IMG/VR virus record: IMGVR_UViG_2563366819_000003
Coordinates: 1-55,732 of that record
Direction: 5' to 3' (one strand)
Length of the DNA stretch: 55,732 nucleotides
Source: a virus
Lineage: Duplodnaviria; Heunggongvirae; Uroviricota; Caudoviricetes
Below are positions 2,061 through 32,394 of this stretch, piece by piece; within the stretch, counting starts at the first letter, position 1; every line of letters starts with the position of its first letter. Position numbers and translations under genes: made by a program. The notes beneath the pieces are model-generated. The model was not told the DNA's origin. It saw only the letters and a list, made by a program, of their open reading frames with translations, and did not search any database.

Positions 2061-3125
2061 TTAAGTTGTTTCCAGACTTCCTTTGGTAAAAGCTTGTATC
2101 AGTCTGTTTGCTGCTGCTTTCTGCGCTGCCACATTGGCAATAACAGATAGTTTTTCCTGGCTGGCTTTCGTGCAGATCCCCGCCCAGTTATCCATCAGAA
2201 AAAAATCCTCTCTTTCTGCAGAGCTGGTAGTTGCACATAGTTTTTCGATCATAGAAGTTATTTCTGCGATGGAATGATTAACCATCATCTGTTGAACCGC
2301 AAAACCGAAAGCGTTAATCATTACTCCATGGAACTGAATATAATCGCGCTTGTACGTAGCGTGGTGTACACCATGTCGAATTGAGTCAATCTGAGTTAGT
2401 GTAATCCATGCCTCCCAGACAGATTCTATATATCCCATTTCAAGTTGTTGATTGCCGTTCCTAGCGAACTTTGACGTTGCATCAGTGAGTGCCTTGAAAC
2501 TCACCCACATATTACTTTTTAATGGCACTACGTTGTGTTCAAAATCGGTTATATCGGCAAATACAGTATGTTGGGTCAGGAAGGATATCATTCCCTGAGC
2601 AATATCATCCCGGCCGTTATACGCCATATTGATGGTCGCTGATGGCTTAGAAACGTTGTTATTTATGTCCGAAAAGAACTGCTGCCGGGTTTTTAGCGGC
2701 AGATTCATTGTAAGCATCATGGGAACCATGAGCGTTGATGGGGAACTTCGGCAAAATATCTCAATGCCAGCTGCACGATGTTGACCATCAAAAAGTTTTA
2801 TTTCGGCGTCGAGGGGAATTCTGGCTATACCAACATTTGTGTTGCCAAACGGTACAAATTCTATATTCGAATCACAGTTACCTACGAGAGGGGGAATGAT
2901 AAAAGGCTCATTTCTTGAGTCTGCGTTAGTGAGATAATTTAAAAATTTTCGTACTCGATTTGGATTAATTTCTCGCTGAGAGCGTTCCAGTGTATGGCCG
3001 TAATTATCTGAAGCGAGGAAACGAGCCAGCGATCTTCCTGGTATGGTAAGGAAGAGTGTAACAGTACCACCCTGTACACCTTGCGATGCCGGAAATTCGA
3101 ATGAATGATTACCAACCTGACTCAT
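2061..3125 (-). CDS. DGQHR-domain protein (DndB-like, ParB-like nuclease fold)
   Basis: 354-aa ORF containing the literal motif DGQHR (KLFDGQHRAAGIE) characteristic of the DndB/DGQHR family; sits in the non-essential region between xis and exo. Confidence 0.7.
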   Translation of the reverse strand: MSQVGNHSFEFPASQGVQGGTVTLFLTIPGRSLARFLASDNYGHTLERSQREINPNRVRKFLNYLTNADSRNEPFIIPPLVGNCDSNIEFVPFGNTNVGIARIPLDAEIKLFDGQHRAAGIEIFCRSSPSTLMVPMMLTMNLPLKTRQQFFSDINNNVSKPSATINMAYNGRDDIAQGMISFLTQHTVFADITDFEHNVVPLKSNMWVSFKALTDATSKFARNGNQQLEMGYIESVWEAWITLTQIDSIRHGVHHATYKRDYIQFHGVMINAFGFAVQQMMVNHSIAEITSMIEKLCATTSSAEREDFFLMDNWAGICTKASQEKLSVIANVAAQKAAANRLIQAFTKGSLETT

Positions 3126-7385: not shown

Positions 7386-7925
7386 ATGCAACCACTTACA
7401 TACCAACAGACTAGCGGATTTAGCCCGACTGCGGTGATAAATCGTTCTCAAACAAAACAGGTGCCAGGCCACGAAAAAATCCGTGATGCCGTCCGCGCCT
7501 GGTCGGCTGTAGATAATCAGGATGTCGTTGCCACACTCATTGTGAATGAGTATCGGGAGCAGGGCGGCGGCACCATCGATTTCCCTGATGATGTCAGCCG
7601 TGCACGCCAGAAGCTGTTCCGCTTCCTCGATAACAAATTCGATTCTGAAAAATACCGAAATAACGTGCGTGAACTGACCCCGGCAATTCTGGCGGTACTA
7701 CCGCTGGAATATCGCGGTTACCTGGTTGAGCAGGATAGCTTCATGGCTAGGTTGGCTGAAATGGAAAAGGAACTCAGTGAGGCAAAACAGGCTGTCATTC
7801 TCAACGCACCACGCCACCAGAAACTGAAGGAAATTAGTGAAGGTATTGTGTCGATGTTTCGTGTGGACCCAGATCTGGCTGGTCCATTGATGGCGATGGT
7901 TACTACCATGCTGGGGGCGATATGA
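7386..7925 (+). CDS. YdaT-like / CII-position regulatory protein
   Basis: 179 aa; segment EYREQGGG...LTPAILAVLPLEYR resembles Rac YdaT (EEYLRQGGG...LIPAILAILPRELR) as recalled; located between cro and O. Confidence 0.55.
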   Translation: MQPLTYQQTSGFSPTAVINRSQTKQVPGHEKIRDAVRAWSAVDNQDVVATLIVNEYREQGGGTIDFPDDVSRARQKLFRFLDNKFDSEKYRNNVRELTPAILAVLPLEYRGYLVEQDSFMARLAEMEKELSEAKQAVILNAPRHQKLKEISEGIVSMFRVDPDLAGPLMAMVTTMLGAI

Positions 7926-8011
7926 CAGGTTCAGAAATGGCGAAAGCCGGTCTGCTGGAACAGAACCGACTTTCAGGTGCAAATCGTAACACACTCATTG
8001 CGGGAGGAATT

Positions 8012-8941
8012 ATGGCAAACACTGCTGAGATATTCAATTTTCCAGTGCCGGATGCGGCACAAAAGGAGCCGCGCGTGGCAGATCTCGATGATGGTTATAC
8101 GCGCATTGCAAATGAGTTGCTGGAAGCTGTGATGCTGGCCGGATTAACACAGCACCAGCTTCTGGTCTTTCTGGCTGTCATGCGCAAAACATATGGCTTT
8201 AATAAAAAACTGGATTGGGTTAGCAACGAGCAACTTTCCGAATTAACCGGGATATTGCCGCACAAGTGTTCTGCTGCAAAAAGTGTTCTGGTAAAGCGTG
8301 GGATTTTTATTCAGAGCGGGCGGAATACCGGCATTAATAATGTGGTCAGTGAATGGTCAACATTACCCGAATCAGGTAAGAAAAATAAAGTTTACCTGAA
8401 AGAGGTAAATTTACCTGAATCAGGTAAAAAAAGTTTACCCAAATCAGGTAAAGGCGTTTACCCGAATCAGGTAAACACAAAAGACAAACTAACAAAAGAC
8501 AATATAAAACCTTTTTCGTCCGAGAATTCTGGCGAATCCTCTGACCAACCAGAAAACGATCTTCCTGTGGTGAAACCGGATGCTGCAATTCAGAGCGGCA
8601 GCAAGTGGGGGACAGCAGAAGACCTGACCGCCGCAGAGTGGATGTTTGACATGGTGAAGACCATCGCGCCATCAGCCAGAAAACCGAATTTTGCAGGGTG
8701 GGCTAACGATATCCGCCTGATGCGTGAACGTGACGGACGTAACCACCGCGACATGTGCGTGCTGTTCCGCTGGGCATGCCAGGACAACTTCTGGTCCGGT
8801 AACGTGCTAAGTCCGGCCAAACTCCGCGACAAGTGGACCCAGCTCGAAATCAACCGAAACAAGCAACAGGCTGGCGTGACAGCCGGCAAACCAAAACTCG
8901 ACCTGACGAACACTGACTGGATTTACGGGGTGGAGCTATGA
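8012..8941 (+). CDS. O: Replication initiation protein O
   Basis: N-terminal domain similar to lambda O (VADLDDGYTRIANELLEA...RKTYGFNK); ori iterons embedded in coding sequence; RBS GGGAGG before ATG at 8012. Confidence 0.9.
   Translation: MANTAEIFNFPVPDAAQKEPRVADLDDGYTRIANELLEAVMLAGLTQHQLLVFLAVMRKTYGFNKKLDWVSNEQLSELTGILPHKCSAAKSVLVKRGIFIQSGRNTGINNVVSEWSTLPESGKKNKVYLKEVNLPESGKKSLPKSGKGVYPNQVNTKDKLTKDNIKPFSSENSGESSDQPENDLPVVKPDAAIQSGSKWGTAEDLTAAEWMFDMVKTIAPSARKPNFAGWANDIRLMRERDGRNHRDMCVLFRWACQDNFWSGNVLSPAKLRDKWTQLEINRNKQQAGVTAGKPKLDLTNTDWIYGVEL
8363..8476. repeat. Lambda-type origin iterons (5 copies of about 18 bp, each an inverted repeat TTTACC..GGTAAA) inside O
   Basis: Repeats ttacccgaatcaggtaa / tttacctgaaagaggtaaa / ttacctgaatcaggtaaa / tttacccaaatcaggtaaa / tttacccgaatcaggtaaa followed by an A-rich tract. 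Confidence 0.75.
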
Positions 8942-9639
8942 AAAACATCGCCGCACAGATGGTTAACTTTGACTGTGAGCAGATGCGCCGGATCGCCAAC
9001 AACATGCCGGAACAGTACGACGAAAAGCCACAGGTACAGCAGGTAGCGCAGATCATCAACGGTGTGTTCAGCCAGTTACTGGCAACTTTCCCGGCAAGCC
9101 TGGCTAACCGTGACCAGAATGAACTGAACGAAATCCGCCGCCAGTGGGTTCTGGCTTTCCGGGAAAACGGGATCACCACAATGGAACAGGTTAACGCTGG
9201 AATGCGCGTAGCCCGTCGGCAGAATCGACCATTCCTGCCATCACCCGGGCAGTTTGTCGCCTGGTGCCGGGAAGAAGCATCTGTTAACGCCGGGCTGCCA
9301 AACGTCAGCGAGCTGGTTGATATGGTTTACGAGTATTGCCGGAAGCGTGGCCTGTATCCGGATGCAGAGTCTTATCCGTGGAAATCGAACGCGCATTACT
9401 GGTTGGTTACCAACTTGTACCAGAACATGCGGGCCAATGCGCTGACTGACGCGGAATTACGGCGCAAGGCTGCCGATGAACTGACCTGTATGACAGCGCG
9501 AATTAACCGTGGTGAGACGATACCTGAACCAGTAAAACAACTTCCTGTTATGGGCGGTAGACCTCTAAATCGTGCACAGGCTCTGGCGAAGATCGCAGAA
9601 ATTAAAGCTAAGTTTGGACTGAAAGGATCGATGAAATAG
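8938..9639 (+). CDS. P: Replication protein P (DnaB helicase loader)
   Basis: 233 aa, near-identical to lambda P as recalled (MKNIAAQMVNFD.EQMRRIANNMPEQYDEKPQVQQ...). Confidence 0.95.
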   Translation: MKNIAAQMVNFDCEQMRRIANNMPEQYDEKPQVQQVAQIINGVFSQLLATFPASLANRDQNELNEIRRQWVLAFRENGITTMEQVNAGMRVARRQNRPFLPSPGQFVAWCREEASVNAGLPNVSELVDMVYEYCRKRGLYPDAESYPWKSNAHYWLVTNLYQNMRANALTDAELRRKAADELTCMTARINRGETIPEPVKQLPVMGGRPLNRAQALAKIAEIKAKFGLKGSMK

Positions 9640-9878
9640 AGCTAAAATATTAGCTTTAAAATAAAGTATATCTAGCGAATATAATCCAGGACTGGTTGTA
9701 ATGCCCGCAATAATTGATTGCGTGAGTAATAAAATTTTTCTTCCATTGTAATCATTTAACCATAAAGTTTATGTGGATATTTTATTTGTGTGTTGATTTT
9801 TTTGTAACGTTCTGTATATTTCGCACCTCTTGTCATACCAGTTATTTTTTTCATTATATTCATAACGTTGATTGAACT

Positions 9879-12800
9879 ATGACCACTGTGAATAAAAAGT
9901 TAAAAAAAACTGCATCTGGCGCGATTACATGGTCAGTAATTGTTACCCAGATATTATCTCCAGTTTCTCTTTCTTTGATTCCGGCAAACAGTTTTGCATC
10001 GTCTGATAATAAAGATGTTACGCAAATTTATGCTAGCGATGAGCGTGCAAATAAAGTGGCCTCATTTGCAGTAAGTGCAGGTCAGAGTCTGGCGAATAAT
10101 AATGCAAGTAGTTTTGCTGTAAATACTTTATCAACTCAGGCGACAAAAGAGGTCGTCGATTGGTTGCAACAATATGGCAATGCGCGCATCAAGCTTAATG
10201 TCGATGATTCTTTTTCCTTGAAGGATTCATCATTCGACTTTTTATATCCATGGCTGGATACTCAGGATTATGTGCTATTCAGTCAAACATCACTACATCG
10301 TACTGATGACCGTAATCAGACCAATATTGGTTTGGGGATTCGTCATTTCACTCCTGATAATGCAATGTTGGGTGCGAATGTTTTCTACGATTATGATTTA
10401 AGTCGCAGCCACTCTCGCGCAGGTTTTGGGGTTGAGTACTGGAGAGATTATTTCAGGCTTGGTGTAAATACCTATTTTGGTTTATCTGACTGGAAGGACA
10501 GTCGGGATATTGATGATTATCTGGAAAGACCCGCAAATGGCTGGGATTTTTCTGCTGAAGGATGGCTACCTGCTTATCCGCAATTAGGGGCATCTATTCA
10601 GTTTGAAAAATATTATGGTAAAAATGTCGGATTATTTGGAAGCGATAATCTGCAGGAAAACCCTTACGCAGTTACTGGGGGAATTTCTTATACACCAGTT
10701 CCTCTGATTAAGTTTTCTGCACAGCATAAGCAAGGACAGAGCAACGTTCACGATACAACCTTTGGTGTTGAGTTTAATTACCGCCCAGGCGTTTCCCTTG
10801 CTGAACAGCTTAGCAGTGACAATGTTGCAGTTATGCGAGAAGTCCAGAACCGGCGTTATGATTTTGTTGAACGAAATAACAACATTGTTCTGGAGTACAA
10901 GAAGAAGCATGCACTGAAAATCAGCTTACCAGAGTCTGTTCAGGGGGATGGCGAATCAATCATCCCTGTAACACTGACAATCAACAATGCCAGTGGTGGT
11001 ATCAAGTCTGTACAGTGGAATGATAGTGTATTCACTGCGGCTGGCGGTAAGATCAGTGGAAATGGCACATCATGGCAGGTCACTTTACCGGCTTATAAAA
11101 GCGAAGGTGTAAATTCGTGGAATGTTGGAGCCACGGTCCAGGATAATAGAGGCAACGTTTCCAACTATGCGGTGATGAATATTAGCGTTATTAATAGTGG
11201 TGTCTCGACAGCGGATTCTTCTTTTATGTTGGATGGAGATTCATCTCCGACGATCTCTGCTGATGGTCAATCCACTCATCCAATAGTATTAAGCCTGAAA
11301 GACAGTAACGGTAAGGCATTAACCGGACTGGCTGATGACATTGAAATGTCAGTGGAATTTACTGCGGATAGCAATAGTGCTCGACAGCGTGAAACGGTAA
11401 CTGCCCCGTCATTAGGCGCGGTAGAGGAAATCTCTGCTGGTGTATATCGCTCTGTTCTGACTGCTGGTTCGCAGGCTGGCACAGTACGTGTAACAGCAAA
11501 AGTTCAGGGAAAAACCTTTACTTTGAATATTAAGCAGGCAGCCGTTATTGATAGTGATGTCTCGACAGCGGATTCTTCTTTTACGTTGGATGGTGATTCG
11601 TCTCCGACGATCTCTGCTGATGGTCAATCCACTCATCCAATAGTATTAAGCCTGAAAGACAGTAACGGTAAGGCATTAACCGGACTGGCTGATGACATTG
11701 AAATGTCAGTGGAATTTACTGCGGATAGCAATAGTGCTCGACAGCGTGAAACGGTAACTGCCCCGTCATTAGGCGCGGTAGAGGAAATCTCTGCTGGTGT
11801 ATATCGCTCTGTTCTGACTGCTGGTTCGCAGGCTGGTACGGTACGTGTAACTGCAAAAGTAATGGATAAAACATTTACTCTCAGTATTAAGCAAACAGCA
11901 GCAACAGAACCTGATTCTGAGGTCAGTGCTGTTTTAACCGCTGCACCAGCAGAACAGGTAGTTGGTTACAATATCAATCTACAACTGGCAGTGAAGGATT
12001 CACAAGGAAATGCAATCACTGGTGATAACACTCTGAGCTTTTATGCTCTTAACCAGGCAGAAGGAGTCGAGTTTGGGGCTGTAACGGAAAAAGACGGTGT
12101 CTATAGCGCGACAGTAACTTCAAAACGAGCTGGTAAGATTCGGATCGGTGTTAAATCGGGTAGTCACAATTTCTCAGGTATTGAGAAAGAAATCTCCTTT
12201 ATTGAAGATCGAACACAGTTCGCATTCTCTCGTATTGAAGCCAGTAAAAATAATGCATTGGCTGACGGCAAACAACAGAATACGGTGACTGTAAGCCTTG
12301 CAGATCGTTTCGGCAATGTTGTGCCCGGTTATGCTGTTACGCTGTCCTTACCTGCGGGGGTAACTCAAGTTGGTGGTGAACATGCTGTGTCAACTGACGA
12401 AAACGGTAATGCTGTTTTTGCGTTAATAAGCTCCACTCCGGGTTCTTACGTGATTAAAGCTCATGCTGGTTCTCAGATGTCTACTGAGTTAACAGTAACC
12501 TTTGCATCAAATATGATCGGAGCTTCACTGTCACTGACGCCTGGAAACAGTAGCTTAATTTCCAATATTCCTGCTAATGGTAAGGATGCTGCGGTATTGA
12601 ATGTGCAACTGACAAATACGAATGCGTCGGTCAATGGACAGAAGATTCAGCTCATCACCTCATCTGAAGGATTGTCTGTACCGACAAATATCGTGACTGA
12701 TTCAACAGGGCATGTTTCCGTACCACTTACAACGGTGAGAGCTGGTGAGTATACGGTGGCTGCACGAGTGACTGACGGTTCCCATAGTGTGGAGTCTGGC

Positions 12801-13787
12801 AGCGTTAAGTTAACTTTTGTACCAGATGCTGCTTCCGCAGAACTTACTATGAGTACATCAAAACAGCAGATTGTGGCCGATGGTAGTGAAAGTGCAACAG
12901 TGGACATTCAGTTGGTTGATGCCAATAACAATGCGTTTACAGGCGATGTGGATTTAACGGTTACACCATCGACGGGAGCATCATTGACCAGTAGTAAACT
13001 GCAGTTGGATGCTCATGGACAGGCAACAACGCAGTTCACAGCATCGAAATCAGGCCAGTACACAATTCAGGCTGAGTATGTTCTAGATGGGAAACGTATA
13101 ACCGCAAGCAAAAATATTGATGCCGTGACGGATGTGAAGGAGGCTGTGTTGGAGATCACATCATCTGCATCTTCGGCTGTAGTGAGCGATACCAACAATC
13201 TGATATTTACGTTACTGTTGAAAAGTACGTCAGGCGAAGTATTAAGTGGTCGAGTATTGAATATCAAGGCATCTGGGCCGTCCAAATATGGTGCGTTGGT
13301 GGTTGATAAAACCACTGTAACGACTGATGAGTATGGTCTGGCTACGGTAAGCGTACATGGTCGAACGGCTGGTTCGTATAAATTAACGGCGACCTTAGAT
13401 GAACTTGGCAGTGATGTTAGTGAGGTGAAGTCATTCTCTCTGTATGCTGATGAGGCAAATGGAGTATTGACACTGCATAAAGATGGAGGCTATGACACAG
13501 ATGATGGTACTCCAGTGGGGGTTTATGCCCGATTTGTTGACCATTTCGGCAATCCGTTATCTGGTACGGTTGAGTTTTCTGCTGGTAGTGAAGATAGTCC
13601 AAACTCTCAACGGGTTAAAATGGAGCCTGCTACAGTAACGTTACACTGGACAGGTAATGCAGCCTCGGAGTTCAGCACCTATGAAAGCGGTTATCACTGG
13701 ATTAAGGCCAAAATAACGAACAGCAAAAATACATATGAGAAAACAATAAGGACTTATGTTGTAAAGCTCCCTGAAAAGGATAGTTAA
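9879..13787 (+). CDS. Intimin/invasin-family inverse autotransporter adhesin with multiple Big (bacterial Ig-like) domains
   Basis: 1302 aa; N-terminal signal-like segment, beta-barrel region typical of inverse autotransporters (WLQQYGNARIKLNVDD...), then repeated Ig-like modules including a tandem 119-aa duplication; AT-rich upstream region and terminator downstream. Confidence 0.8.
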   Translation: MTTVNKKLKKTASGAITWSVIVTQILSPVSLSLIPANSFASSDNKDVTQIYASDERANKVASFAVSAGQSLANNNASSFAVNTLSTQATKEVVDWLQQYGNARIKLNVDDSFSLKDSSFDFLYPWLDTQDYVLFSQTSLHRTDDRNQTNIGLGIRHFTPDNAMLGANVFYDYDLSRSHSRAGFGVEYWRDYFRLGVNTYFGLSDWKDSRDIDDYLERPANGWDFSAEGWLPAYPQLGASIQFEKYYGKNVGLFGSDNLQENPYAVTGGISYTPVPLIKFSAQHKQGQSNVHDTTFGVEFNYRPGVSLAEQLSSDNVAVMREVQNRRYDFVERNNNIVLEYKKKHALKISLPESVQGDGESIIPVTLTINNASGGIKSVQWNDSVFTAAGGKISGNGTSWQVTLPAYKSEGVNSWNVGATVQDNRGNVSNYAVMNISVINSGVSTADSSFMLDGDSSPTISADGQSTHPIVLSLKDSNGKALTGLADDIEMSVEFTADSNSARQRETVTAPSLGAVEEISAGVYRSVLTAGSQAGTVRVTAKVQGKTFTLNIKQAAVIDSDVSTADSSFTLDGDSSPTISADGQSTHPIVLSLKDSNGKALTGLADDIEMSVEFTADSNSARQRETVTAPSLGAVEEISAGVYRSVLTAGSQAGTVRVTAKVMDKTFTLSIKQTAATEPDSEVSAVLTAAPAEQVVGYNINLQLAVKDSQGNAITGDNTLSFYALNQAEGVEFGAVTEKDGVYSATVTSKRAGKIRIGVKSGSHNFSGIEKEISFIEDRTQFAFSRIEASKNNALADGKQQNTVTVSLADRFGNVVPGYAVTLSLPAGVTQVGGEHAVSTDENGNAVFALISSTPGSYVIKAHAGSQMSTELTVTFASNMIGASLSLTPGNSSLISNIPANGKDAAVLNVQLTNTNASVNGQKIQLITSSEGLSVPTNIVTDSTGHVSVPLTTVRAGEYTVAARVTDGSHSVESGSVKLTFVPDAASAELTMSTSKQQIVADGSESATVDIQLVDANNNAFTGDVDLTVTPSTGASLTSSKLQLDAHGQATTQFTASKSGQYTIQAEYVLDGKRITASKNIDAVTDVKEAVLEITSSASSAVVSDTNNLIFTLLLKSTSGEVLSGRVLNIKASGPSKYGALVVDKTTVTTDEYGLATVSVHGRTAGSYKLTATLDELGSDVSEVKSFSLYADEANGVLTLHKDGGYDTDDGTPVGVYARFVDHFGNPLSGTVEFSAGSEDSPNSQRVKMEPATVTLHWTGNAASEFSTYESGYHWIKAKITNSKNTYEKTIRTYVVKLPEKDS
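11197..11910 (+). repeat. Near-perfect tandem duplication (2 x about 357 bp) encoding a duplicated Ig-like domain within the adhesin gene
   Basis: Sequence from about 11201 (tgtctcgacagcggattcttctttt...) recurs at about 11558 almost identically; encoded peptide VSTADSSF.LDGDSSPTISADGQSTHPIVLSLKDSNGKALTGLADDIEMS... is repeated. Confidence 0.85.
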
Positions 13788-13799
13788 CAAAACAGAATA

Positions 13800-13825
13800 G
13801 GGAGGGCTAAGCCCTCCCACTTTTT
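13800..13825 (+). terminator. Rho-independent terminator after adhesin gene
   Basis: Hairpin gggagggctaagccctccc followed by acttttt. Confidence 0.55.
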
Positions 13826-14085
13826 AATTGAGACGGACTGTTTCTTAAATTCACTTACGTTAGATATGAACTGATTATTTTTTATAACAATAAAAGACTT
13901 TTGATTTTTGAATATCAGTAAGTAATAATGATTTACGTCGACAGACTGAACATCTGTTGGTGACTTCTGCGCTAAACGGGGACGTTTATGCGCACATACA
14001 ATCTAAACTCTCTTCTCTCTTCACAGATGCAGAAATGCACCTGCGATTCTTTGCATCCAACGTTTGACCTCTGCGGAGGTGAAGC

Positions 14086-14541
14086 GTGAACCTCCCACAA
14101 GATGGCATCAAATTACATCGCGGTAACTTCACCGCTATCGGTCGGCAGATCCAGCCTTATCTGGAGGACGGCAAATGCTTTCGCATGGTGCTTAAACCGT
14201 GGCGCGAGAGACGCAGTCTTTCCCAGAATGCACTCAGCCACATGTGGTACAGCGAAATCAGTGAATACCTCATCAGCAGGGGTAAAACGTTCGCCACTCC
14301 AGCTTGGGTAAAAGATGCTCTCAAACACACATATCTCGGTTATGAAACCAAAGACCTGGTTGATGTCGTAACCGGTGATATCACCACTATCCAGTCGTTA
14401 CGCCATACCTCCGACCTTGATACCGGAGAGATGTATGTCTTCCTGTGTAAGGTTGAAGCCTGGGCGATGAATATTGGCTGCCACCTGACTATTCCGCAGA
14501 GCTGCGAGTTCCAGCTGCTGCGTGATAAGCAGGAGGCGTAA
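14086..14541 (+). CDS. ninB: NinB-family recombination protein (YbcN-like)
   Basis: 151 aa, conserved RSLSQN motif of NinB family; first gene of the nin region. Confidence 0.8.
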
Positions 14542-14711
14542 TGGCTACACCGCTTATTCGTGTCATGAACGGACACATCTACAAAGTACCAAATCGTCGT
14601 AAGCGTAGGCCTGAGCTGAAACCATCCGAAATACCAACACTGCTCGGATATACCGCCAGCCTGGTTGATAAAAAATGGTTGCGACTGGCAGCAAGGAGGA
14701 ATCATGGCTGA
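14541..14711 (+). CDS. ninE: NinE-like small protein (56 aa; below ORF-track cutoff)
   Basis: ATG at 14541 overlapping ninB stop; translation [56 protein letters not shown] read directly from sequence. Confidence 0.6.
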   Translation: MATPLIRVMNGHIYKVPNRRKRRPELKPSEIPTLLGYTASLVDKKWLRLAARRNHG

Positions 14712-14994
14712 TTTGAGAAAAGCAGCGCGTGGTCGGGAATGCCAGGTAAGAATCCCTGGCGTATGTAATGGCAATCCTGAAACGTCTGTACTGGCACATA
14801 TCCGGCTGGCTGGATTGTGCGGTACCGGTATCAAACCGCCAGACCTGATTGCCACCATTGCATGTTCTGCCTGTCACGACGAGATCGACCGTCGCACGCA
14901 TTTTGTTGACGCTGGATATGCAAAAGAATGCGCGCTGGAAGGTATGGCGAGAACGCAGGTTATCTGGCTGAAAGAGGGGGTAATTAAGGCGTGA
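14704..14994 (+). CDS. ybcO: YbcO-like DUF1364 protein (Cys-rich, putative nuclease)
   Basis: 96 aa from [23 protein letters not shown]...; nin-region position between ninE and rusA. Confidence 0.75.
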
Positions 14995-15353
14995 ATACCT
15001 ACAATATCACATTACCCTGGCCGCCGAGCAATAATCGCTATTACCGCCATAATCGCGGGCGCACGCACATCAGCGCAGAGGGGCAGGCATACCGCGAAAA
15101 CGTCGCCCGAATCATTAAAAACGCAATGCTGGATATCGGCCTGGCTATGCCTGTGAAAATCCGCATTGAGTGTCACATGCCGGATCGCCGTCGCCGTGAC
15201 CTGGATAATCTACAAAAGGCCGCTTTTGACGCACTCACCAAAGCAGGTTTCTGGTTGGATGATGCTCAGGTCGTTGATTACCGCGTTGTGAAGATGCCGG
15301 TTGTCAAAGGTGGAAAGCTGGAACTGACCATCACTGAACAGGGAGATGAATGA
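14991..15353 (+). CDS. rusA: Holliday-junction resolvase RusA
   Basis: 120 aa, RusA family ([18 protein letters not shown]...DRRRRDLDN). Confidence 0.9.
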
Positions 15354-16148: not shown

Positions 16149-17231
16149 TTAGAACTGATACACCAGACCTACAGCGACGATGTCGTCGGTATCAATACCA
16201 GCTGTTTTGGTAAACTTACTATCGTCAATTAAGTTGATTTTGTAATCAACAAAAGTGGACATGTTTTTATTAAAGTAGTAAGTAGCACCGACATCGACAT
16301 ACTTGACTAAGTCTCGGTCACCATGAACACCAAGGTCTTTACCTTTTGACTGAAGGTAAGCAACAGATGGTCGCAGACCGAAGTCAAACTGATATTGTGC
16401 TACTGCTTCAAAGTTTTGTGCTTTGTTTGCAATATGGTTATTACCAAAAACGGTCATATTCTGAGTTTCAGAATATGTGGTAGCCAGATAGATATTGTTC
16501 GCATCATATTTCAGGCCTGCAGCCCATACTTCCGCATTTTTGCCGGAGGCATTGAATTTGCTCTTACCATAGGCGACCTGACCGTCAGTGCGATCTGATT
16601 TAGCATAGGTTGCACCCACGCCGAATCCTTCATACTCATAAGTAGTGGAGAAACCGAAACCATCACCATTGGCTTCAGTTACGTCAGTGCGGTCATTTTT
16701 ACCCTGATACTGAGCAGCAAAGTTCAGGCCATCGACCAGACCAAAGAAGTCGTTGTTACGATAGGTTGCAACACCAGTGGTGCGACCAGTCATGAACACA
16801 TCTGTTTGGGTCCAGGTATCGCCACCGAATTCTGGCAGAACGTCAGTCCACGCACCGATGTCGTATGCTACACCGTAGTTACGGCCGTAATCGATTGAGC
16901 CGTAGTCACCGAATTTCAGGCCTGCAAATGCAAGACGGGTTTTGTCTTTGGAGGAACCTTGAGATTCAGCGCGGTTGCCTTTGAATTCATATTCCCACTG
17001 ACCGAAACCAGTCAGTTGATCGTTGATTTGGGTTTCACCTTTGAAGCCAAGACGGGCATAAGTAGTATCACCATCATCTGCATCGTTAGAGGAAAAGTAG
17101 TGCTTGGCATTAACTTTCCCGTACAGATCCAGCTTGTTACTGTCTTTATTATAAATTTCAGCTGCCTGAGCAGACATCGCCATCAGTACTGATGCAGCTA
17201 CAGCAGAAATTGCCACTGTTAATTTTTTCAT
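16149..17231 (-). CDS. nmpC: Outer-membrane general porin (OmpC/OmpF/NmpC family), intact
   Basis: 360 aa, signal peptide [23 protein letters not shown], porin beta-barrel hallmarks and C-terminal ...VGLVYQF; on strand opposite to flanking phage genes, with AT-rich upstream region. Confidence 0.9.
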
Positions 17232-20806: not shown

Positions 20807-23787
<2,981 letters not shown>

Positions 23788-23864
23788 AACCCTTGCTGCG
23801 TCTGGAATGTCGTTTTCCATGCTTTTGATGACCGTTCATCACCCTTCCAGTTTTTCGCGGTTTT

Positions 23865-23917
23865 GTGTATTGCAATGTGTATTGCAAATTGGCGATCGGG
23901 ATGGGTGTGTATTGCAA
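23865..23917. repeat. Three direct copies of GTGTATTGCAA upstream of satellite integrase (candidate arm-type integrase/regulator binding sites)
   Basis: gtgtattgcaa at about 23865, 23877 and 23907; related copies gtgtattgca / gtgtattgc at 34530..34551 near the other end of the element. Confidence 0.5.
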
Positions 23918-23935
23918 ATCTCTTGAGGGCTTTTA

Positions 23936-25177
23936 ATGGCTATTGAAAACAAACTCAGTGACAAACTGTTAAAGAGTCTTGTCGGAAAACGGCAGGACAA
24001 ACAAAAAACAATAGCGGATGGGCGCGGGTTGTCTGTGCGTGTAAGCATGGTTGGGGGGATCAGCTTTGTTTTTTACTATCGTCTTGGTGGCAGGGAATCC
24101 CCTCCGGTATGGCTTACACTTGGTCGCTATCCTGACATGTCTCTTGCAACGGCCAGGCGCATGCGTGATCAGTGCCGTGAATGGCTGGCTGAAAATCTGG
24201 ACCCCCGCAGGCAAATAAAACTTGCTGCCGAAAAAACTATGCAACCAGTGACCGTAAGGGATGCGCTGTTTTACTGGTACGACAATCACGCCACAACAGC
24301 CAGAAAAGAGCATGAATATTTAATAAAACGATTTGAAAAGCATATCTTCCCCTATATCGGTGATATGGCTATAGAACAGTGCAAATTACACACATGGCTT
24401 ACCGTCTTTGACAGGATCAAAAAAAATGCGCCTGTTATGTCTGGTGCAATTTTTCTTGATATCAAACAGGCGTTGCGTTTTTGTCGCGTCAGGCAATACA
24501 TCGCGTGCGATCCCTTTGGAGATATTAACGTAAGTTATGTCGGGCGCTCATCCGGTATAAGGGATCGCGTTCTTAATATCAATGAAACCGCTGATGTATG
24601 GTCTTATGCTTACGGTAATAATTTGCTAACTCTGTCATCAATATATAACCGAAGAATAATGGTTATCTGCCTGGTGTTTGGTTGCCGACAGCAGGAGGCG
24701 AGGCTATCCACCTGGGACGAATGGGATTTAAAAAACTGGGTATGGACAGTCCCAAAAGAGCACAGCAAAAACAAGGAGGCTATAGTAAGGCCTGTTCCTG
24801 ACGGAATAAAACAATGGATCGTTAATCTTTACGCAGAAACAAAAAATCGCGGTTATGTTGTCGGTTGTGCTTTGCAAAGGGCGACAATAACAGGGGCTGC
24901 AAACAGAATATGCAGGCGTCTTGGTCATGATACTAATGGCTTGTGGTGCATACATGATTTCAGGCGCACATTTTCCACTACGCTTAATGATATGGGGGCG
25001 GATCCTTATATTGTTGAACTTCTTTTAGGTCATAAAGTGAAAGGGGTTGCTGGTGTTTACAATAAAAGCAGGCATATAAAGAAAAAACTTGAGGTGCTTA
25101 ATATGTGGGTTAATTACCTTAATACGATAGCAGGATTTAACAACAACGTTATCGAGCTTAATAAAGAGGTGGTGTGA
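23936..25177 (+). CDS. int: Tyrosine integrase, P4-type
   Basis: 413 aa; C-terminal catalytic region (HDFRRTFSTTLNDMG...LLGHKVKGVAGVYNKS); at one end of the inserted element adjacent to the repeat. Confidence 0.9.
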   Translation: MAIENKLSDKLLKSLVGKRQDKQKTIADGRGLSVRVSMVGGISFVFYYRLGGRESPPVWLTLGRYPDMSLATARRMRDQCREWLAENLDPRRQIKLAAEKTMQPVTVRDALFYWYDNHATTARKEHEYLIKRFEKHIFPYIGDMAIEQCKLHTWLTVFDRIKKNAPVMSGAIFLDIKQALRFCRVRQYIACDPFGDINVSYVGRSSGIRDRVLNINETADVWSYAYGNNLLTLSSIYNRRIMVICLVFGCRQQEARLSTWDEWDLKNWVWTVPKEHSKNKEAIVRPVPDGIKQWIVNLYAETKNRGYVVGCALQRATITGAANRICRRLGHDTNGLWCIHDFRRTFSTTLNDMGADPYIVELLLGHKVKGVAGVYNKSRHIKKKLEVLNMWVNYLNTIAGFNNNVIELNKEVV

Positions 25178-25178
25178 T

Positions 25179-25436
25179 ATGGCAATTTATTCTCTTGTTG
25201 ATGAAAACGATTTGCGCACAATGAAGGACATTGATCGGTTCATTCGTGAAAAAGAGTGCATAGCACTTACCACGCTGGCAAACTCAACACGCTGGAAAAT
25301 GGAGCTAGCAGGTAAATTCCCGCGACGTATCAAGATCGGTGAACGTGCTGCAGGGTATCGACTTTCAGAGGTTCAGGCATGGATCCGTGGTGAGTGGCAT
25401 CCTGGATGGAAACCTGGAAAAACAAAACAGCAATAA
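25179..25436 (+). CDS. alpA: AlpA-family HTH regulator / excisionase-like protein
   Basis: 85 aa; AlpA-like segment LTTLANSTRWKMELAGKFPRRIKIGERAAGYRLSEVQAWI; directly downstream of the integrase. Confidence 0.8.
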   Translation: MAIYSLVDENDLRTMKDIDRFIREKECIALTTLANSTRWKMELAGKFPRRIKIGERAAGYRLSEVQAWIRGEWHPGWKPGKTKQQ

Positions 25437-25492
25437 CCAGTAAATAATGCCCCTCATCACGAGGGGTTTTTTGTCTATAAGGTAAAAACGCG

Positions 25493-26071
25493 ATGAATAA
25501 AAATATTGCCGTGACGGGCAAGGGGTACGCTCGTCCAGTGAAAAAATTCTGCGATATTCGTGATCTCGTCGTTCTGCGCTTTGATAGTGTGAACGTTCGT
25601 GTGGTGTATCTGAACGGCGATCCGTGGTTTGTTGCAAAAGATGTTTGTGCTGCGCTGGAACTAACCAATTCGCGTACGGCGTTGCAGATGCTTGATGATG
25701 ATGAAAAGGGAGTAAATTTAACTTACACCCCAGGAGGAAATCAGAATATGAGAATTATCTCTGAGTCAGGTTTCTACAAACTAATAGCCCGCAGCCGCAA
25801 AGCAACGACGCCTGGCACATTTGCTCATCGTTTCAGTAACTGGGTATTCAGAAATGTGATACCAGGTATCAGAAAAACGGGGACTTATGGTATCCCGTGG
25901 GGTGCATTACAGGATTTTTCCCGCCGTAAAGAGCAATATCAAATAAGTGCCAGCGAGAAGGGGAGGGAGCTACAGGCATGTAAGCGCAAAAAGCGTGAGC
26001 TGGAGGAAGAAGAAAAAACGCTGATACGTGAATATCAGCCTGAGTTTTACTTTGGTAACCGCATTCAGTGA
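25493..26071 (+). CDS. Bro-N domain protein (antirepressor-like)
   Basis: 192 aa; Bro-N-like core (VRVVYLNGDPWFVAKDVCAALEL...ISESGFYKLIARSRK...FSNWVFRNVIPGIRKTGTY). Confidence 0.65.
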   Translation: MNKNIAVTGKGYARPVKKFCDIRDLVVLRFDSVNVRVVYLNGDPWFVAKDVCAALELTNSRTALQMLDDDEKGVNLTYTPGGNQNMRIISESGFYKLIARSRKATTPGTFAHRFSNWVFRNVIPGIRKTGTYGIPWGALQDFSRRKEQYQISASEKGRELQACKRKKRELEEEEKTLIREYQPEFYFGNRIQ

Positions 26072-26404
26072 CAAAACAAAGGCGACCGCAAAAGGGTCGC
26101 CAGTGGGAACAAGGGAAAACAAAAGCATCACCAACAATGCCACATTTGCGGCTGGTGGGCAATGTGATCAGTCAGATTTGGTTCGTTCCAAGGTTTGCAA
26201 CGAGAGCTTTTTCCTGTGCTCTTTAAGGAATTTCTCAAGAGCAAACGAACAAGGTGCGAATCTTTCTGATTCATGTTCATGCGCTATATTTTTGCGTCGT
26301 CTCTTACGAGTTGGTGATGGTGTTTTGGTTGATTCTGTGTCGCTCATGGTGCTGTCCTGTAAAGCAATGCGCCTGCGTTCCTCAAACTATGGCGCTGATA
26401 TTGG

Positions 26405-26710
26405 CTATTCATGCTCTTTGACCTTGCGTCGCTGGAGTTCTTCACGCGCGACGGTGACGAGTTGCCCGATCTCCTCGGCTGCTTTGATGCCGATTTGTTC
26501 GACCTTAGCCAGGGCATCCAGTGACGACACAAGGGGATTTTCTCCGCTGCCTTCTGCTTGGCGGCGGGCTATTTCTCCGCGCATGGCGGTTACGATAAAT
26601 CCGGCATTGCTTTCACCGTCCAGCTTAACGGATTCCATCCCTTGCATAACATCTAGTGGGACTCTGACAGTTGTCAGTTGTGATTTTGCGTTTTTGTTAG
26701 CCGTTGCCAT
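26405..26710 (-). CDS. Hypothetical protein, divergently transcribed from the satellite replication operon (candidate regulator)
   Basis: 101-aa ORF on minus strand facing a promoter-operator-like region; no clear HTH recognised. Confidence 0.4.
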   Translation of the reverse strand: MATANKNAKSQLTTVRVPLDVMQGMESVKLDGESNAGFIVTAMRGEIARRQAEGSGENPLVSSLDALAKVEQIGIKAAEEIGQLVTVAREELQRRKVKEHE

Positions 26711-26770
26711 TTCTGAAACTCCTAATCATCGGTGTGTTTCAGTATACACAAAAAAAGAAATACAAAAAGC

Positions 26771-26809
26771 CTTGACGTGTGTTTCATGCGCTCATAACAT
26801 GAAACACAC
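26771..26809. promoter_or_regulatory. Promoter/operator candidate: TTGACG -35-like hexamer followed by a 12-bp perfect inverted repeat
   Basis: cttgacg tgtgtttcatg cgctcataa catgaaacacac; inverted repeat 26777..26788 / 26798..26809, between divergent genes. Confidence 0.4.
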
Positions 26810-26900
26810 CGAAAGGATTGTTGAAATACAAAGAGCAACGCCCCGCAGTGCTGGGAACACATACGGGGCGTCTAACCAACAACGTAAACTAGGAGCCGTT

Positions 26901-27098
26901 ATGGTTGCTGTAAATCATATACCACACCTTGTACACACACAAACGGCCTTTGTGTGGCGTTTTCTGGCACTGAGTGCCGGAGAATCTCAAATCATCCACG
27001 TAACCGCCTGGACGGAACGCGAAGCGCGTAGCCGTTGCCCGTCCGGTTGTGTTGCTGTATTCGCTGCAAAAATCCGCCAGGGAGTGAGTCATGCTTAA
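26901..27098 (+). CDS. Hypothetical small protein (65 aa), first gene of rightward satellite operon
   Basis: ATG at 26901 preceded by RBS AGGAG (26891..26895); lies at 3' end of a longer, compositionally odd ORF in the track. Confidence 0.35.
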   Translation: MVAVNHIPHLVHTQTAFVWRFLALSAGESQIIHVTAWTEREARSRCPSGCVAVFAAKIRQGVSHA

Positions 27099-27276
27099 AA
27101 CCTTCCGTGTATTTGCCCGAGCTGTTAACCCAATAGGCCACACAATTGGTATCGCTCAGAATGTGAAGGCTGTTAATGTTCAGACGGCTATTGCTGCGGT
27201 GAGAAGCGAATCATCAGAATATGGCTTATCACAAGTCATTATTTCAGCAGTGTATGAATTAAAAGAGGTGCATTAA
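27091..27276 (+). CDS. Hypothetical small protein
   Basis: 61-aa ORF with RBS GGAG upstream, overlapping neighbours by a few nt (translationally coupled operon). Confidence 0.35.
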   Translation: MLKTFRVFARAVNPIGHTIGIAQNVKAVNVQTAIAAVRSESSEYGLSQVIISAVYELKEVH

Positions 27277-27467
27277 TGCAGGAAATTACATTACACGAAG
27301 CCGCTGAACGTGCGCACCAGACAGAAATTATTTGCCGCCTTCTTGAGGTATACCCGAACAAAATTACAGATGCTGATATATCCGCACTGGCGAGCCTACT
27401 GGCGCGTCTTTCGGGAAGTGTCGCTAGTTTTTTGATTGAGGAAGAAAGTAAGCTGGTGGAGGATTAA
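27276..27467 (+). CDS. Hypothetical small protein
   Basis: 63-aa ORF in tightly packed operon. Confidence 0.35.
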   Translation: MQEITLHEAAERAHQTEIICRLLEVYPNKITDADISALASLLARLSGSVASFLIEEESKLVED

Positions 27468-27689
27468 ATGAATACAGAACGGGAAGTCTTTTTTAAATTG
27501 TTAGCATGTGCAGAAAGTTCATTAACTTTAAATAATTCAGCAAAAGCAATATTAAATATGTGGCTTGATTGCATAAATGACAATGAAGATGCAAATATTG
27601 CTTATGGTCTGTTGTCACTTATTGATGAATCAGCAGAAAAACTCAATGACGCAATAAATAGTGCCCTGCTATCAAATAAGTCGAGTTAA
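27468..27689 (+). CDS. Hypothetical small protein
   Basis: 73-aa ORF in tightly packed operon. Confidence 0.35.
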   Translation: MNTEREVFFKLLACAESSLTLNNSAKAILNMWLDCINDNEDANIAYGLLSLIDESAEKLNDAINSALLSNKSS

Positions 27690-27706
27690 GTCGAGGAATA
27701 AATAAT

Positions 27707-28006
27707 ATGGAAATGAAAAATTCTGGCTTTATTGCCAGCGGCCCAGCTCGACCTGAATTTATGAACGGCGATATTTACCGCGATAAATACGGCGGCACGG
27801 TAACGATTAAAGGCGTGGCAGAACGGCGCATCACTTACCGCCGTGAGGGGTATAGCTATGACTGCGTGATGCCTGTTTATCAGTTCCGGCGTGATTTTTC
27901 CCTGGTATATGCCGCACCCCGCAGTAAGCCCATCAGCAGGGAAAAAGCGTGGGGAAATATCCAGAAAATGAAAACCATGATTAACGGATTCAGAGGTAAA
28001 AAATGA
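27707..28006 (+). CDS. Hypothetical protein
   Basis: 99-aa ORF, stop overlaps primase start (ATGA). Confidence 0.4.
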   Translation: MEMKNSGFIASGPARPEFMNGDIYRDKYGGTVTIKGVAERRITYRREGYSYDCVMPVYQFRRDFSLVYAAPRSKPISREKAWGNIQKMKTMINGFRGKK

Positions 28007-29757: not shown

Positions 29758-29759
29758 TT

Positions 29760-30010
29760 TTTTGTAAAAGCCATCTACCCCATCTACCTGAACAAAATAA
29801 ACGCATATTATTCAACATGATAAGTGGGTATAGGGCTAGGTAGAAGGCTAATAAAAGCTCTCTACCTCTTCTACCTGATTTTATCAGTTTCAGGTAGCAG
29901 GGTAGACGGCAGGTAGAGGAGTCAAAAAGCTATCTACCCGCTGAAAGCCGCGCCATTACTGACATGATGAGCATTCGGGTAGATGGGTAGAGGGGGGGAG
30001 GCACAACTAA
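29760..30010. repeat. Iteron-like repeats (GGTAGA / TCTACC family) downstream of primase: candidate satellite replication origin
   Basis: Multiple direct and inverted copies: catctaccccatctacctg, ctaggtagaaggc, ctctacctcttctacctg, caggtagcagggtagacggcaggtagagga, gctatctacccgc, gggtagatgggtagag. Confidence 0.5.
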
Positions 30011-30103
30011 AAACTTTTTAAACGAGGGGGGTGAAAATAAATGCGCATACATAAAAATCACTTAACAAACATGCCAGCCGAAGACATGAATCAGGGGTGA
30101 CAA

Positions 30104-32032: not shown

Positions 32033-32041
32033 GGGGGAGCA

Positions 32042-32383: not shown

Positions 32384-32394
32384 AGGGGGATACA

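What the first reader, a model, noticed from the sequence alone, without database searches (positions are those of the whole stretch)
9640..13825. Intimin/invasin-like inverse autotransporter adhesin gene between P and the nin region
A 3.9-kb gene with AT-rich upstream region and its own terminator sits where lambda has ren/nin genes. It encodes an inverse-autotransporter beta-barrel plus a string of Ig-like domains. A prophage-borne adhesin here would be lysogenic-conversion cargo affecting adherence or biofilm.
Basis: partly seen in the sequence, partly recalled or inferred. Interest (0 to 1): 0.6.

Follow-up and report, generated by a model that had tools for sequence, protein, structure and literature searches.

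The report
Prophage-borne FdeC-like inverse autotransporter adhesin
A lambda-like prophage in this E. coli window carries, as extra cargo next to its replication genes, an intact gene for a long intimin/invasin-type surface protein that about one in ten sequenced E. coli strains (including the pandemic ST131 clone) also have, always on such prophages, and that nobody has yet tested in the lab.

Summary
ORF 9879..13787 (+) encodes 1302 aa. It lies between phage replication gene P and ybcN/ninE/rusA, after a 28%-GC leader and before a hairpin terminator.

The protein is a clear type Ve (inverse) autotransporter. It has a signal peptide and no LysM domain. The IAT_beta barrel scores E=1e-100 and is 50% identical to the solved invasin barrel. 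It is followed by a D00-like domain, two near-identical 119-aa Ig repeats, five Big_1 domains and a family-specific, probably Ig-like tip with no C-type lectin.

The closest characterised relative is FdeC (33% identity overall, 59% in the barrel). It reaches no NCBIfam equivalog cut-off.

It occurs in 558 of 5426 complete E. coli genomes. In every context I could read it sits in the P-to-nin cargo slot, in prophages at argU, icd and ybhC. In DLP12-type prophages the same slot holds ren-emrE-ybcKLM. Alleles carry 1-4 copies of the repeat, and dN/dS is 0.15.

E. albertii has a degraded chromosomal homologue between patD and ortT.

The only literature mention found is an annotation, EC958_1349 "prophage-associated invasin-like protein".

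Verdict: an uncharacterised new member of a known kind. The adhesin or biofilm role is inferred, not shown.

The parts
9628..9878 (+). Left junction of the cargo slot and the AT-rich leader (28% GC). It contains a conserved block at about 9813-9851 and sigma-70-like hexamers TTGTCA-16-CATTAT at 9830-9857.
   Evidence: Similarity to P genes of prophages that lack the gene stops at about 9627. The block is conserved between both phage alleles and the E. albertii chromosomal copy. The hexamers are and are not above chance on their own.
9879..13787 (+). Inverse autotransporter (type Ve) gene, 1302 aa plus stop codon.
   Evidence: ORF. Annotated in RefSeq as 'inverse autotransporter beta domain-containing protein' WP_001599507.1 at a 100%-identical locus. 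dN/dS is 0.147 against the icd-prophage allele.
9879..9998 (+). Putative Sec signal peptide (aa 1-40): a KKLKK n-region, a hydrophobic stretch at aa 14-36, and a likely cleavage site SFA|SS.
   Evidence: Read directly from the translation. The region from aa 15 aligns with the N-terminus of FdeC. No signal-peptide predictor was available.
9999..10166 (+). Short periplasmic N-terminal segment (aa 41-96) with no LysM domain.
   Evidence: Pfam on aa 1-100 finds no LysM domain.
10167..10901 (+). Beta-barrel translocator plus linker (aa 97-341).
   Evidence: Pfam IAT_beta E=1.3e-100. PDB matches: 4e1t invasin barrel E=1.2e-74 and 4e1s intimin barrel E=4.3e-64, each over the whole chain. Identity is 58.6% to FdeC, 50.0% to invasin and 45.9% to intimin. 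dN/dS is 0.011.
10902..11198 (+). D00-like first Ig domain (aa 342-440).
   Evidence: Matches the solved intimin chain 6tqd at residues 2-104, E=8e-9.
11199..11912 (+). Two tandem 357-bp / 119-aa Ig-like repeats (aa 441-559 and 560-678). The copy number varies between alleles.
   Evidence: Tandem Repeats Finder reports 11186-11893, period 357, 2.0 copies, 95% matches. The central 236 bp are identical between the two copies. Each copy matches Invasin_D3 at E about 1e-10 to 1e-11. Alleles with 1, 2, 3 and 4 copies give 1183, 1302, 1421 and 1540 aa.
11913..13415 (+). Five further Big_1 / Invasin_D3 Ig-like domains (aa 679-1179).
   Evidence: Pfam on slices gives Big_1 E-values from 2e-21 to 4e-7. 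FdeC passenger structure 4e9l matches aa 700-843 at E=5e-17.
13416..13784 (+). C-terminal tip domain (aa 1180-1302). It is specific to this family, probably a divergent Ig-like domain, and is not a C-type lectin.
   Evidence: Pfam gives only Big_1 at E=0.079. There is no PDB sequence match even at E<=10. Among 1.84 billion representative proteins, only members of this family and one 55%-identical E. albertii fragment match it over most or all of its length. hhalign against the internal Big_1 domains gives probability 48%, E=1.8e-4. dN/dS is 0.10.
13800..13818 (.). Intrinsic-terminator-like hairpin (8 pairs, 7 G-C) with T-runs on both strands.
   Evidence: It lies inside the block that is conserved with the icd-prophage alleles, which extends to 13826.
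13827..13942 (.). A 116-bp AT-rich spacer found only in this haplotype. The icd-prophage haplotype has 1346 bp here, carrying a convergent alpha/beta hydrolase gene. This is the right edge of the cargo slot.
   Evidence: Similarity to other lambdoid prophages, including K-12 DLP12, resumes at about 13943-13959.

Best explanation
The gene encodes a type Ve (inverse autotransporter) outer-membrane surface protein of the FdeC/invasin/intimin kind. It is carried as a 'moron' (non-essential cargo) in the variable slot between replication gene P and the nin region of lambdoid prophages.

The proposed mechanism is inferred from the family. The N-terminal signal peptide directs Sec export. The barrel (aa 97-341) is inserted into the outer membrane. 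The linker passes through the pore, and the passenger is exported and folds into a rod of about ten Ig-like domains ending in a family-specific tip. The rod then mediates adhesion or biofilm formation, as shown for FdeC, YeeJ and IatB-D.

The gene appears to be its own transcription unit. It has an AT-rich leader that is conserved even in a non-phage homologue, and its own terminator. By analogy with FdeC, it is probably kept low by H-NS-type silencing.

Unequal recombination between the near-identical 357-bp repeats changes the stalk length (1-4 copies among alleles).

Shown here: the domain architecture, family membership, prophage linkage, slot boundaries, copy-number variation and purifying selection. 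Inferred: surface display, the ligand, adhesion or biofilm function, and regulation.
For: Architecture.

FdeC is the closest characterised relative: 33% identity over 1227 aligned residues. fdeC is also the next-best barrel match in genomes that lack this gene, at about 66% DNA identity.

Cargo status:
- The composition break.
- The left boundary at about 9627 and the right boundary at about 13943.
- The same slot filled by ren-emrE-ybcKLM in a prophage whose P gene matches the window's P (3' 428 bp tested) at 99.8%.
- 558 of 5426 genomes carry the barrel, and 558 carry the P/leader junction.
- In every IMG/VR locus whose contig extends far enough, P lies upstream and ybcN downstream.
- The same 99.9%-identical allele sits in prophages at argU and at ybhC, the latter with a different integrase, immunity region and O gene. 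A 93.5%-identical allele sits at icd.

Functional constraint: dN/dS is 0.147 overall, 0.011 in the barrel and 0.10 in the tip, with dS (0.18) similar to that of P (0.24). Intact 1302-aa and 1183-aa products are seen on hundreds of contigs.

Repeat variation.

Biofilm and surface phenotypes of E. coli relatives: PMC6714894.
Against: There are no expression, localisation or binding data for this protein. The only literature trace found is an annotation and some mutations reported in a clinical isolate (PMC8541385).

The promoter-like hexamers are no more frequent than in shuffled sequence, and the Shine-Dalgarno sequence is weak.

The tip domain has no recognisable ligand-binding fold. Both AlphaFold2 runs, made without an alignment, were uninformative (pLDDT 42 and 36).

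E. coli relatives IatB-D gave biofilm but no ECM binding or aggregation when overexpressed (PMC6714894), so 'adhesin' may be too specific.

The equal counts of 558 genomes suggest, but do not prove, that the two sets are identical.
Confidence: 0.8

Rival explanations
1. The protein mainly serves the phage rather than host colonisation. It might shield or mask outer-membrane receptors (superinfection exclusion), or clump lysogens so that released virions find hosts. It would still work mechanically as a displayed inverse autotransporter.
For: It has co-diverged with the replication/nin module (dS 0.18 against 0.24 for P). It is retained in lambdoid phages with different immunity regions and integrases, which is what one expects of a gene useful to the phage. 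Prophages commonly carry exclusion genes; for example, sieB is annotated in the ybhC prophage.
Against: No known inverse autotransporter has this role. Most related prophages with near-identical P genes lack the gene (3515 genomes have a similar P gene, 558 have the IAT). A homologue exists at a non-phage chromosomal site in E. albertii. No experiment bears on the question.
Confidence: 0.08
2. It is a silent or decaying passenger: a horizontally acquired gene that is never usefully expressed and survives only by hitch-hiking with the prophage.
For: The leader is very AT-rich, which is typical of H-NS-silenced DNA, and the ribosome-binding site is weak. Some copies are disrupted by IS elements or truncated (rows H40, H53, H65). 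The E. albertii chromosomal homologue is broken into a 738-aa ORF and a 135-aa ORF. The window's prophage is itself interrupted in its portal gene.
Against: dN/dS is 0.147 overall and 0.011 in the barrel across alleles that differ at 18% of synonymous sites. A 3.9-kb ORF stays intact in two diverged haplotypes and on hundreds of contigs. Repeat-number variants remain in frame.
Confidence: 0.1
3. It is simply an allele or orthologue of a named E. coli inverse autotransporter (FdeC/EaeH, intimin, YeeJ, IatA-D) that happens to lie in a prophage.
For: It aligns with FdeC along most of its length and shares the same general architecture: no LysM domain and no lectin tip. The published seven-group survey included EC958, which carries this gene, without listing an extra group.
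Against: Identity to FdeC is only 33% overall and 58.6% in the barrel. Scores lie far below every NCBIfam equivalog cut-off: IatC 397 against 2400, intimin 334 against 1400, SinH 321 against 999, YchO 271 against 508. fdeC is present as a separate gene at its own locus. Carrier genomes show a second barrel match, and EC958 is scored fdeC-positive in PMC6714894 Data Set S1 while also carrying this gene.
Confidence: 0.02

Closest known systems
FdeC (EaeH), E. coli inverse autotransporter adhesin
   Same: It has the same overall plan: a signal peptide, no LysM domain, an IAT barrel, a D00-like domain, a long chain of Big_1 Ig-like domains and no C-type lectin tip. The two align over 1227 residues. 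Barrel identity is 58.6%. The FdeC passenger crystal structure 4e9l matches aa 700-843.
   Different: Identity is only 33% overall. FdeC is a chromosomal gene at a fixed non-phage locus, flanked by LysR-family and aldo/keto reductase genes, and is found in most strains. The gene studied here is on prophages in about 10% of genomes, has a tandem pair of near-identical 119-aa domains with variable copy number, and has an unrelated C-terminal tip (the last ~100 aa do not align).
Yersinia invasin and EPEC/EHEC intimin (founding members of the type Ve family)
   Same: The barrel is homologous over the whole crystallised domain (E=1e-74 and 4e-64; 50% and 46% identity). The first passenger domain matches the solved intimin chain 6tqd. 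The passenger domains match Invasin_D3 and Big_1.
   Different: It has no LysM domain (intimin has one) and no C-type lectin-like tip, which is the part that binds Tir or beta1-integrin. It scores below the intimin equivalog cut-off (334 against 1400). The passenger is longer, at about ten domains.
IatB/IatC/IatD and YeeJ (other E. coli inverse autotransporters, PMC6714894, PMC5595812)
   Same: They belong to the same secretion family. IatB-D are surface-exposed and promote biofilm when overexpressed, which is the best experimental guide to this gene's function.
   Different: None of their models reaches its cut-off. Those genes sit at fixed chromosomal positions (PMC6714894). YeeJ, IatC and IatD have LysM domains and lectin tips, which are absent here.
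Yersinia ruckeri YrIlm/YrInv (inverse autotransporters with near-identical tandem Ig domains)
   Same: Their passengers contain almost identical tandem Ig repeats, which invite changes in copy number and break short-read assemblies (cited in PMC6714894 and PMC10174560). Here there are 1-4 copies, and many contigs end in the repeat.
   Different: The YrIlm N-terminal model scores 302 bits against a cut-off of 750. They come from a different species and are not reported on lambdoid prophages.
Lambdoid prophage morons and the DLP12 cargo slot (emrE-ybcK-ybcL-ybcM; lambda lom/bor as a functional analogy, from general knowledge)
   Same: A non-phage gene with foreign base composition and its own terminator is inserted between conserved phage genes. 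It occupies exactly the slot that holds ren-emrE-ylcJ-ybcK-ybcL-ybcM in DLP12-type prophages.
   Different: The cargo is a 3.9-kb type Ve surface protein. I found no described example of this class as lambdoid prophage cargo in the literature I could search.

Membership tests
Inverse autotransporter / type Ve secretion family | An intimin/invasin-type beta-barrel (Pfam PF11924) is present. | tested here: met
   IAT_beta at aa 69-334, E=1.3e-100, 337 bits against a cut-off of 22.3. Full-length matches to the crystallised barrels 4e1t and 4e1s.
Inverse autotransporter / type Ve secretion family | Inverted topology: the barrel is N-terminal and the passenger C-terminal. | tested here: met
   The barrel occupies aa 97-341. 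Ig-like domains occupy aa 342-1302.
Inverse autotransporter / type Ve secretion family | An N-terminal Sec signal peptide. | tested here: met
   Judged by inspection only: a KKLKK n-region, a hydrophobic stretch at aa 14-36 and SFA|SS. The region aligns with the FdeC N-terminus. No dedicated predictor was available.
Inverse autotransporter / type Ve secretion family | A passenger built of bacterial Ig-like (Big_1 / Invasin_D3) domains. | tested here: met
   Eight Big_1 or Invasin_D3 matches, a D00-like domain and a weakly Ig-like tip.
Inverse autotransporter / type Ve secretion family | The passenger is actually exported to the cell surface through or with the barrel (BAM-dependent). | not testable with these tools
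   This needs expression plus surface labelling or protease accessibility.
   AlphaFold2 without an alignment gave mean pLDDT 35.6, which is uninformative.
FdeC (orthologue) | High identity to FdeC and location at the fdeC chromosomal locus. | tested here: not met
   33% identity. It lies at a different locus, on a prophage. fdeC co-occurs in carrier genomes.
Intimin (NCBIfam NF033627 equivalog) | A score above the curated cut-off, a LysM domain and a C-type lectin tip. | tested here: not met
   333.6 bits against a cut-off of 1400. No LysM or lectin domain in Pfam.
IatC / SinH(IatB) / YchO(IatA) / Ilp / YrIlm / Inv NCBIfam equivalogs | A score above each curated cut-off. | tested here: not met
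   Scores against cut-offs: 397 vs 2400, 321 vs 999, 271 vs 508, 311 vs 1125, 302 vs 750, 278 vs 710.
Prophage moron (lysogenic-conversion cargo) | Lies between conserved phage genes and is absent from closely related phages. | tested here: met
   Slot boundaries at about 9627 and 13943. 3515 genomes have a similar P gene and 558 have the IAT. The alternative cargo ren-emrE-ybcKLM fills the same slot elsewhere.
Prophage moron (lysogenic-conversion cargo) | Base composition unlike that of the surrounding phage genes. | tested here: met
   Leader 28% GC, CDS 44% GC (GC3 36%), flanks 51-53% GC (GC3 50-59%).
Prophage moron (lysogenic-conversion cargo) | Its own promoter and terminator. | tested here: inconclusive
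   The terminator-like hairpin at 13800-13818 is clear and conserved. The promoter-like hexamers at 9830-9857 lie in a block conserved with the non-phage E. albertii copy, but such hexamers are no more frequent than in shuffles.
Prophage moron (lysogenic-conversion cargo) | Expressed from the repressed prophage and changes the host phenotype. | not testable with these tools
   This needs transcriptomics and phenotyping of lysogens.

The most novel reading that the evidence does not exclude
This is an eighth lineage of E. coli inverse autotransporters, missing from the published seven-group scheme. In E. coli it exists only as a mobile P-IAT-nin cassette that recombines between lambdoid phages with different integrases and immunity regions (argU, icd and ybhC sites). 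It was captured, with its own proximal regulatory block, from an Escherichia chromosomal islet like the one between patD and ortT in E. albertii. Its unique tip domain and length-variable stalk give lysogens, notably ST131, a specific colonisation or biofilm advantage.
Probability: 0.3. Interest if true: 0.55.

Novelty: new member of a known kind. Interest (0 to 1): 0.4.

Why it matters
If the protein is displayed and adhesive, it is a phage-transferable colonisation factor. It is present in about 10% of complete E. coli genomes, including the ST131 reference strain EC958. It is also a surface antigen related to the vaccine candidate FdeC, yet it is absent from current adhesin schemes.

It gives a clean example of how one cargo slot in lambdoid phages (P to nin) is reused for very different host-benefit genes: emrE-ybcKLM in DLP12-type prophages and a type Ve adhesin here.

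The 357-bp repeat explains why short-read assemblies break in this gene. Surveys based on such assemblies will therefore under-count or mis-size it.

It does not change what is known about how inverse autotransporters or morons work.

Tried and rejected
- **Structure prediction.** I modelled the C-terminal two domains (aa 1083-1302) and aa 41-444 (barrel plus D00). Only single-sequence input was possible, because the accepted homologues are at least 90% identical. pLDDT was 42.2 and 35.6, so the models were not used and no fold search was run.
- **Cultured-phage records (INPHARED).** There was no DNA match. tblastn with the barrel found only two distant hits, one of them a Salmonella genome scaffold. 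The gene is therefore known only from prophages and from prophage-derived IMG/VR contigs.
- **Word-indexed homologue search with the tip domain.** It returned only fragments of the same family. The exhaustive HMMER search added one E. albertii fragment. PDB gave no hit even at E<=10.
- **Rfam scan of 9300-14300.** No match at E<=0.1, so there is no known leader RNA or sRNA.
- **Phase variation through the A8 run in codons 8-10.** 32 of 33 loci have A8 and one has A6. That is not enough to support the idea.
- **Literature.** Accession numbers gave no hit. Searches for prophage plus invasin or intimin-like terms gave only PMC8541385. The 'putative invasin' entries in PMC3091784 and PMC2323221 do not appear to concern this gene.
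- **Self-BLAST for domain boundaries.** It returned nothing useful. I used phmmer with the repeat unit and sliced Pfam scans instead.

Full report
**1. The observation**

The window has one long ORF at 9879..13787 on the + strand, encoding 1302 aa. Nothing longer than 92 aa lies on the opposite strand.

It follows the phage replication genes (O-like 7922..8941, P 8938..9639). It precedes a small ORF and then ybcN, ninE, ybcO and rusA (14086..15353). These names come from the RefSeq annotation of a 100%-identical locus in E. coli AST217.

The 239-bp leader is 28% GC. The CDS is 44% GC (GC3 36%), against 51-53% in the flanking phage genes. Twelve bases after the stop codon there is a hairpin of 8 pairs (7 G-C) followed by a T-run, at 13800..13818.

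**2. What the protein is**

Pfam places an inverse-autotransporter barrel (IAT_beta) at aa 69-334 with E=1.3e-100, plus repeated Big_1/Invasin_D3 domains.

Against solved structures, aa 97-341 match the whole crystallised barrel of Yersinia invasin (4e1t, E=1.2e-74) and of intimin (4e1s, E=4.3e-64). Aa 342-441 match the solved intimin chain 6tqd. Part of the passenger matches the FdeC structure 4e9l.

Barrel identity is 58.6% to FdeC, 50.0% to invasin and 45.9% to intimin.

Sliced Pfam scans and a phmmer scan with the repeat unit give this layout:

| Region (aa) | Feature |
|---|---|
| 1-40 | signal peptide (by inspection) |
| 41-96 | short segment with no LysM domain |
| 97-341 | barrel and linker |
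| 342-440 | D00-like domain |
| 441-559, 560-678 | two 119-aa Ig-like repeats |
| 679-1179 | five Big_1 domains |
| 1180-1302 | 123-aa tip |

The tip has no C-type lectin signature and no PDB sequence match. In an exhaustive HMMER search of 1.84 billion representative proteins, only its own family and one 55%-identical fragment matched it over most or all of its length. A profile comparison with the internal Big_1 domains gives a modest match (probability 48%, E=1.8e-4). The tip is therefore most likely a divergent Ig-like domain.

Both AlphaFold2 runs had to be made without an alignment and were uninformative (pLDDT 42 and 36).

**3. Relation to named family members**

No NCBIfam equivalog cut-off is reached:

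| Model | Score (bits) | Cut-off |
|---|---|---|
| IatC N-terminal | 397 | 2400 |
| intimin | 334 | 1400 |
| SinH | 321 | 999 |
| YchO | 271 | 508 |

FdeC aligns over 1227 residues at 33% identity. It shares the plan of no LysM domain and no lectin tip, but the last ~100 residues do not align. In genomes that lack this gene, the best DNA match to its barrel is fdeC, at about 66%.

The published survey of E. coli inverse autotransporters defines seven groups: intimin, FdeC, YeeJ and IatA-D. It does not mention phages (PMC6714894). Its strain table includes EC958, scored positive for fdeC, iatA and iatB only. Yet EC958 carries a 1421-aa allele of this gene. So this is a paralogue of FdeC that the scheme does not name. 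I could not see whether it was merged with another group or missed.

**4. Cargo status and mobility**

The barrel is present at 95% identity or more in 558 of 5426 complete E. coli genomes. The junction of P with the gene's leader is also present in 558 genomes, while 3515 genomes have a similar P gene.

Similarity to P genes of prophages without the gene stops at about 9627, and similarity on the right resumes at about 13943. In a DLP12-type prophage whose P gene matches the window's P (3' 428 bp tested) at 99.8%, the same slot contains ren, emrE, ylcJ, ybcK, ybcL and ybcM.

The window itself is a lambdoid prophage at the argU/DLP12 site, running from intD to appY. The same 99.9%-identical allele sits in a lambda-immunity prophage next to ybhC, with a different integrase, immunity region and O gene. 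A 93.5%-identical allele sits in the icd prophage of ST131 strains and strain PAR, where a convergent alpha/beta hydrolase gene follows it. The window has 116 bp there instead of 1346 bp.

In 36 IMG/VR loci, every contig that extends far enough has P upstream and ybcN downstream. No cultured-phage record carries the gene.

**5. Constraint and variation**

Between the argU and icd alleles, dN/dS is 0.147 overall, 0.011 in the barrel and 0.10 in the tip. dS is 0.18, close to the 0.24 of the neighbouring P gene. The gene is therefore under purifying selection and has diverged along with the phage module.

The two 357-bp repeats are identical over their central 236 bp. Alleles in the large protein collection have 1, 2, 3 or 4 copies, giving 1183, 1302, 1421 and 1540 aa. 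There is also a 1064-aa in-frame deletion variant. Many short-read contigs end inside the repeat.

**6. A non-phage relative**

Among species-representative genomes, only Escherichia albertii has a close homologue. There, and in a 99.3%-identical Logan contig, the gene lies between patD (ydcW) and ortT (ydcX), after ydcSTUV, with no phage genes nearby.

DNA similarity to the window starts at 9810, about 70 bp before the start codon. It includes a conserved block at about 9813-9851 that contains TTGTCA-16-CATTAT. In the full-length contig (L046) the E. albertii copy is broken into a 738-aa ORF and a 135-aa ORF that carries the 55%-identical tip; in the type-strain assembly (L044) it is cut off by the contig end.

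In E. coli the gene is prophage-borne. In E. albertii a degraded chromosomal copy exists. A shared origin, with capture of the gene together with its proximal regulatory region, is plausible but its direction is unproven.

**7. Mechanism**

By homology, the protein should be exported by Sec and anchor through the barrel. It should display a rod of about ten Ig-like domains. From general knowledge of invasin, this would be roughly 35-40 nm long. The repeats would set its reach.

Its E. coli relatives promote biofilm when overexpressed and are repressed by global regulators (PMC6714894). The AT-rich leader suggests similar silencing.

None of this was tested for this protein. [quoted passage not shown]

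**8. Verdict**

This is a real, intact, selected gene. It is a new and uncharacterised member of the inverse autotransporter family, closest to FdeC, and it is mobilised as cargo of lambdoid prophages. It is of moderate interest: a useful candidate colonisation factor and antigen, especially for ST131, but not a new kind of system.

Noticed in passing
window 23741-34624: An element of about 10.9 kb is inserted inside the prophage's portal gene. Compared with the intact EC958 prophage, similarity stops at 23740 and resumes at 34625, and the same 13 bp of the EC958 portal gene are matched at both junctions (read as a 13-bp duplication). The element encodes an integrase (23936-25177), a repressor-like protein (26028-27098), a P4-type primase (28003-29757) and its own major head protein (30905-32032). 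It looks like a phage satellite (capsid-forming PICI or P4-like) sitting in the portal gene of its likely helper.
   Followed up: partly
L003 16195-17238; L005 18420-19463 (absent from the window, where 13827-13942 takes its place): In the icd-prophage haplotype a convergent alpha/beta hydrolase gene follows the adhesin gene and shares its terminator. The window's haplotype has only a 116-bp AT-rich spacer there. Whether the hydrolase is functionally linked to the adhesin is unknown.
   Followed up: partly
L044 8001-8711; L046 5389-8408: Escherichia albertii has a chromosomal homologue between patD and ortT. It is 80% identical at the N-terminus and 55% in the tip. It is split into a 738-aa ORF and a 135-aa ORF, so it is probably a pseudogene.
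   Followed up: yes
L045 (357-bp contig in a Moraxella osloensis assembly): A 357-bp contig, exactly one repeat unit long and 97% identical to the window's Ig repeat, sits in a Moraxella assembly. It is almost certainly E. coli contamination or a collapsed-repeat artefact.
   Followed up: no
window 9903-9910: An A8 run lies in codons 8-10 of the adhesin gene. 32 of 33 loci have A8 and one has A6, which would shift the reading frame. This is too little to call phase variation.
   Followed up: partly
window 16149-17231 (-): A 360-aa ORF lies between the Q antiterminator gene and the lysis genes. It is annotated as porin OmpC (the nmpC position of DLP12) in the identical RefSeq locus. It is a second outer-membrane cargo gene in the same prophage.
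   Followed up: no
window 2061-3125 (-): A 354-aa ORF lies in the early-left region. It is annotated as a DGQHR domain-containing protein in the identical RefSeq locus. It may be a defence-related accessory gene.
   Followed up: no
PMC6714894 Data Set S1 versus L005 14118-18383: The published survey of E. coli inverse autotransporters includes EC958 but lists only fdeC, iatA and iatB for it. EC958 nevertheless carries a 1421-aa allele of this prophage gene.
   Followed up: partly
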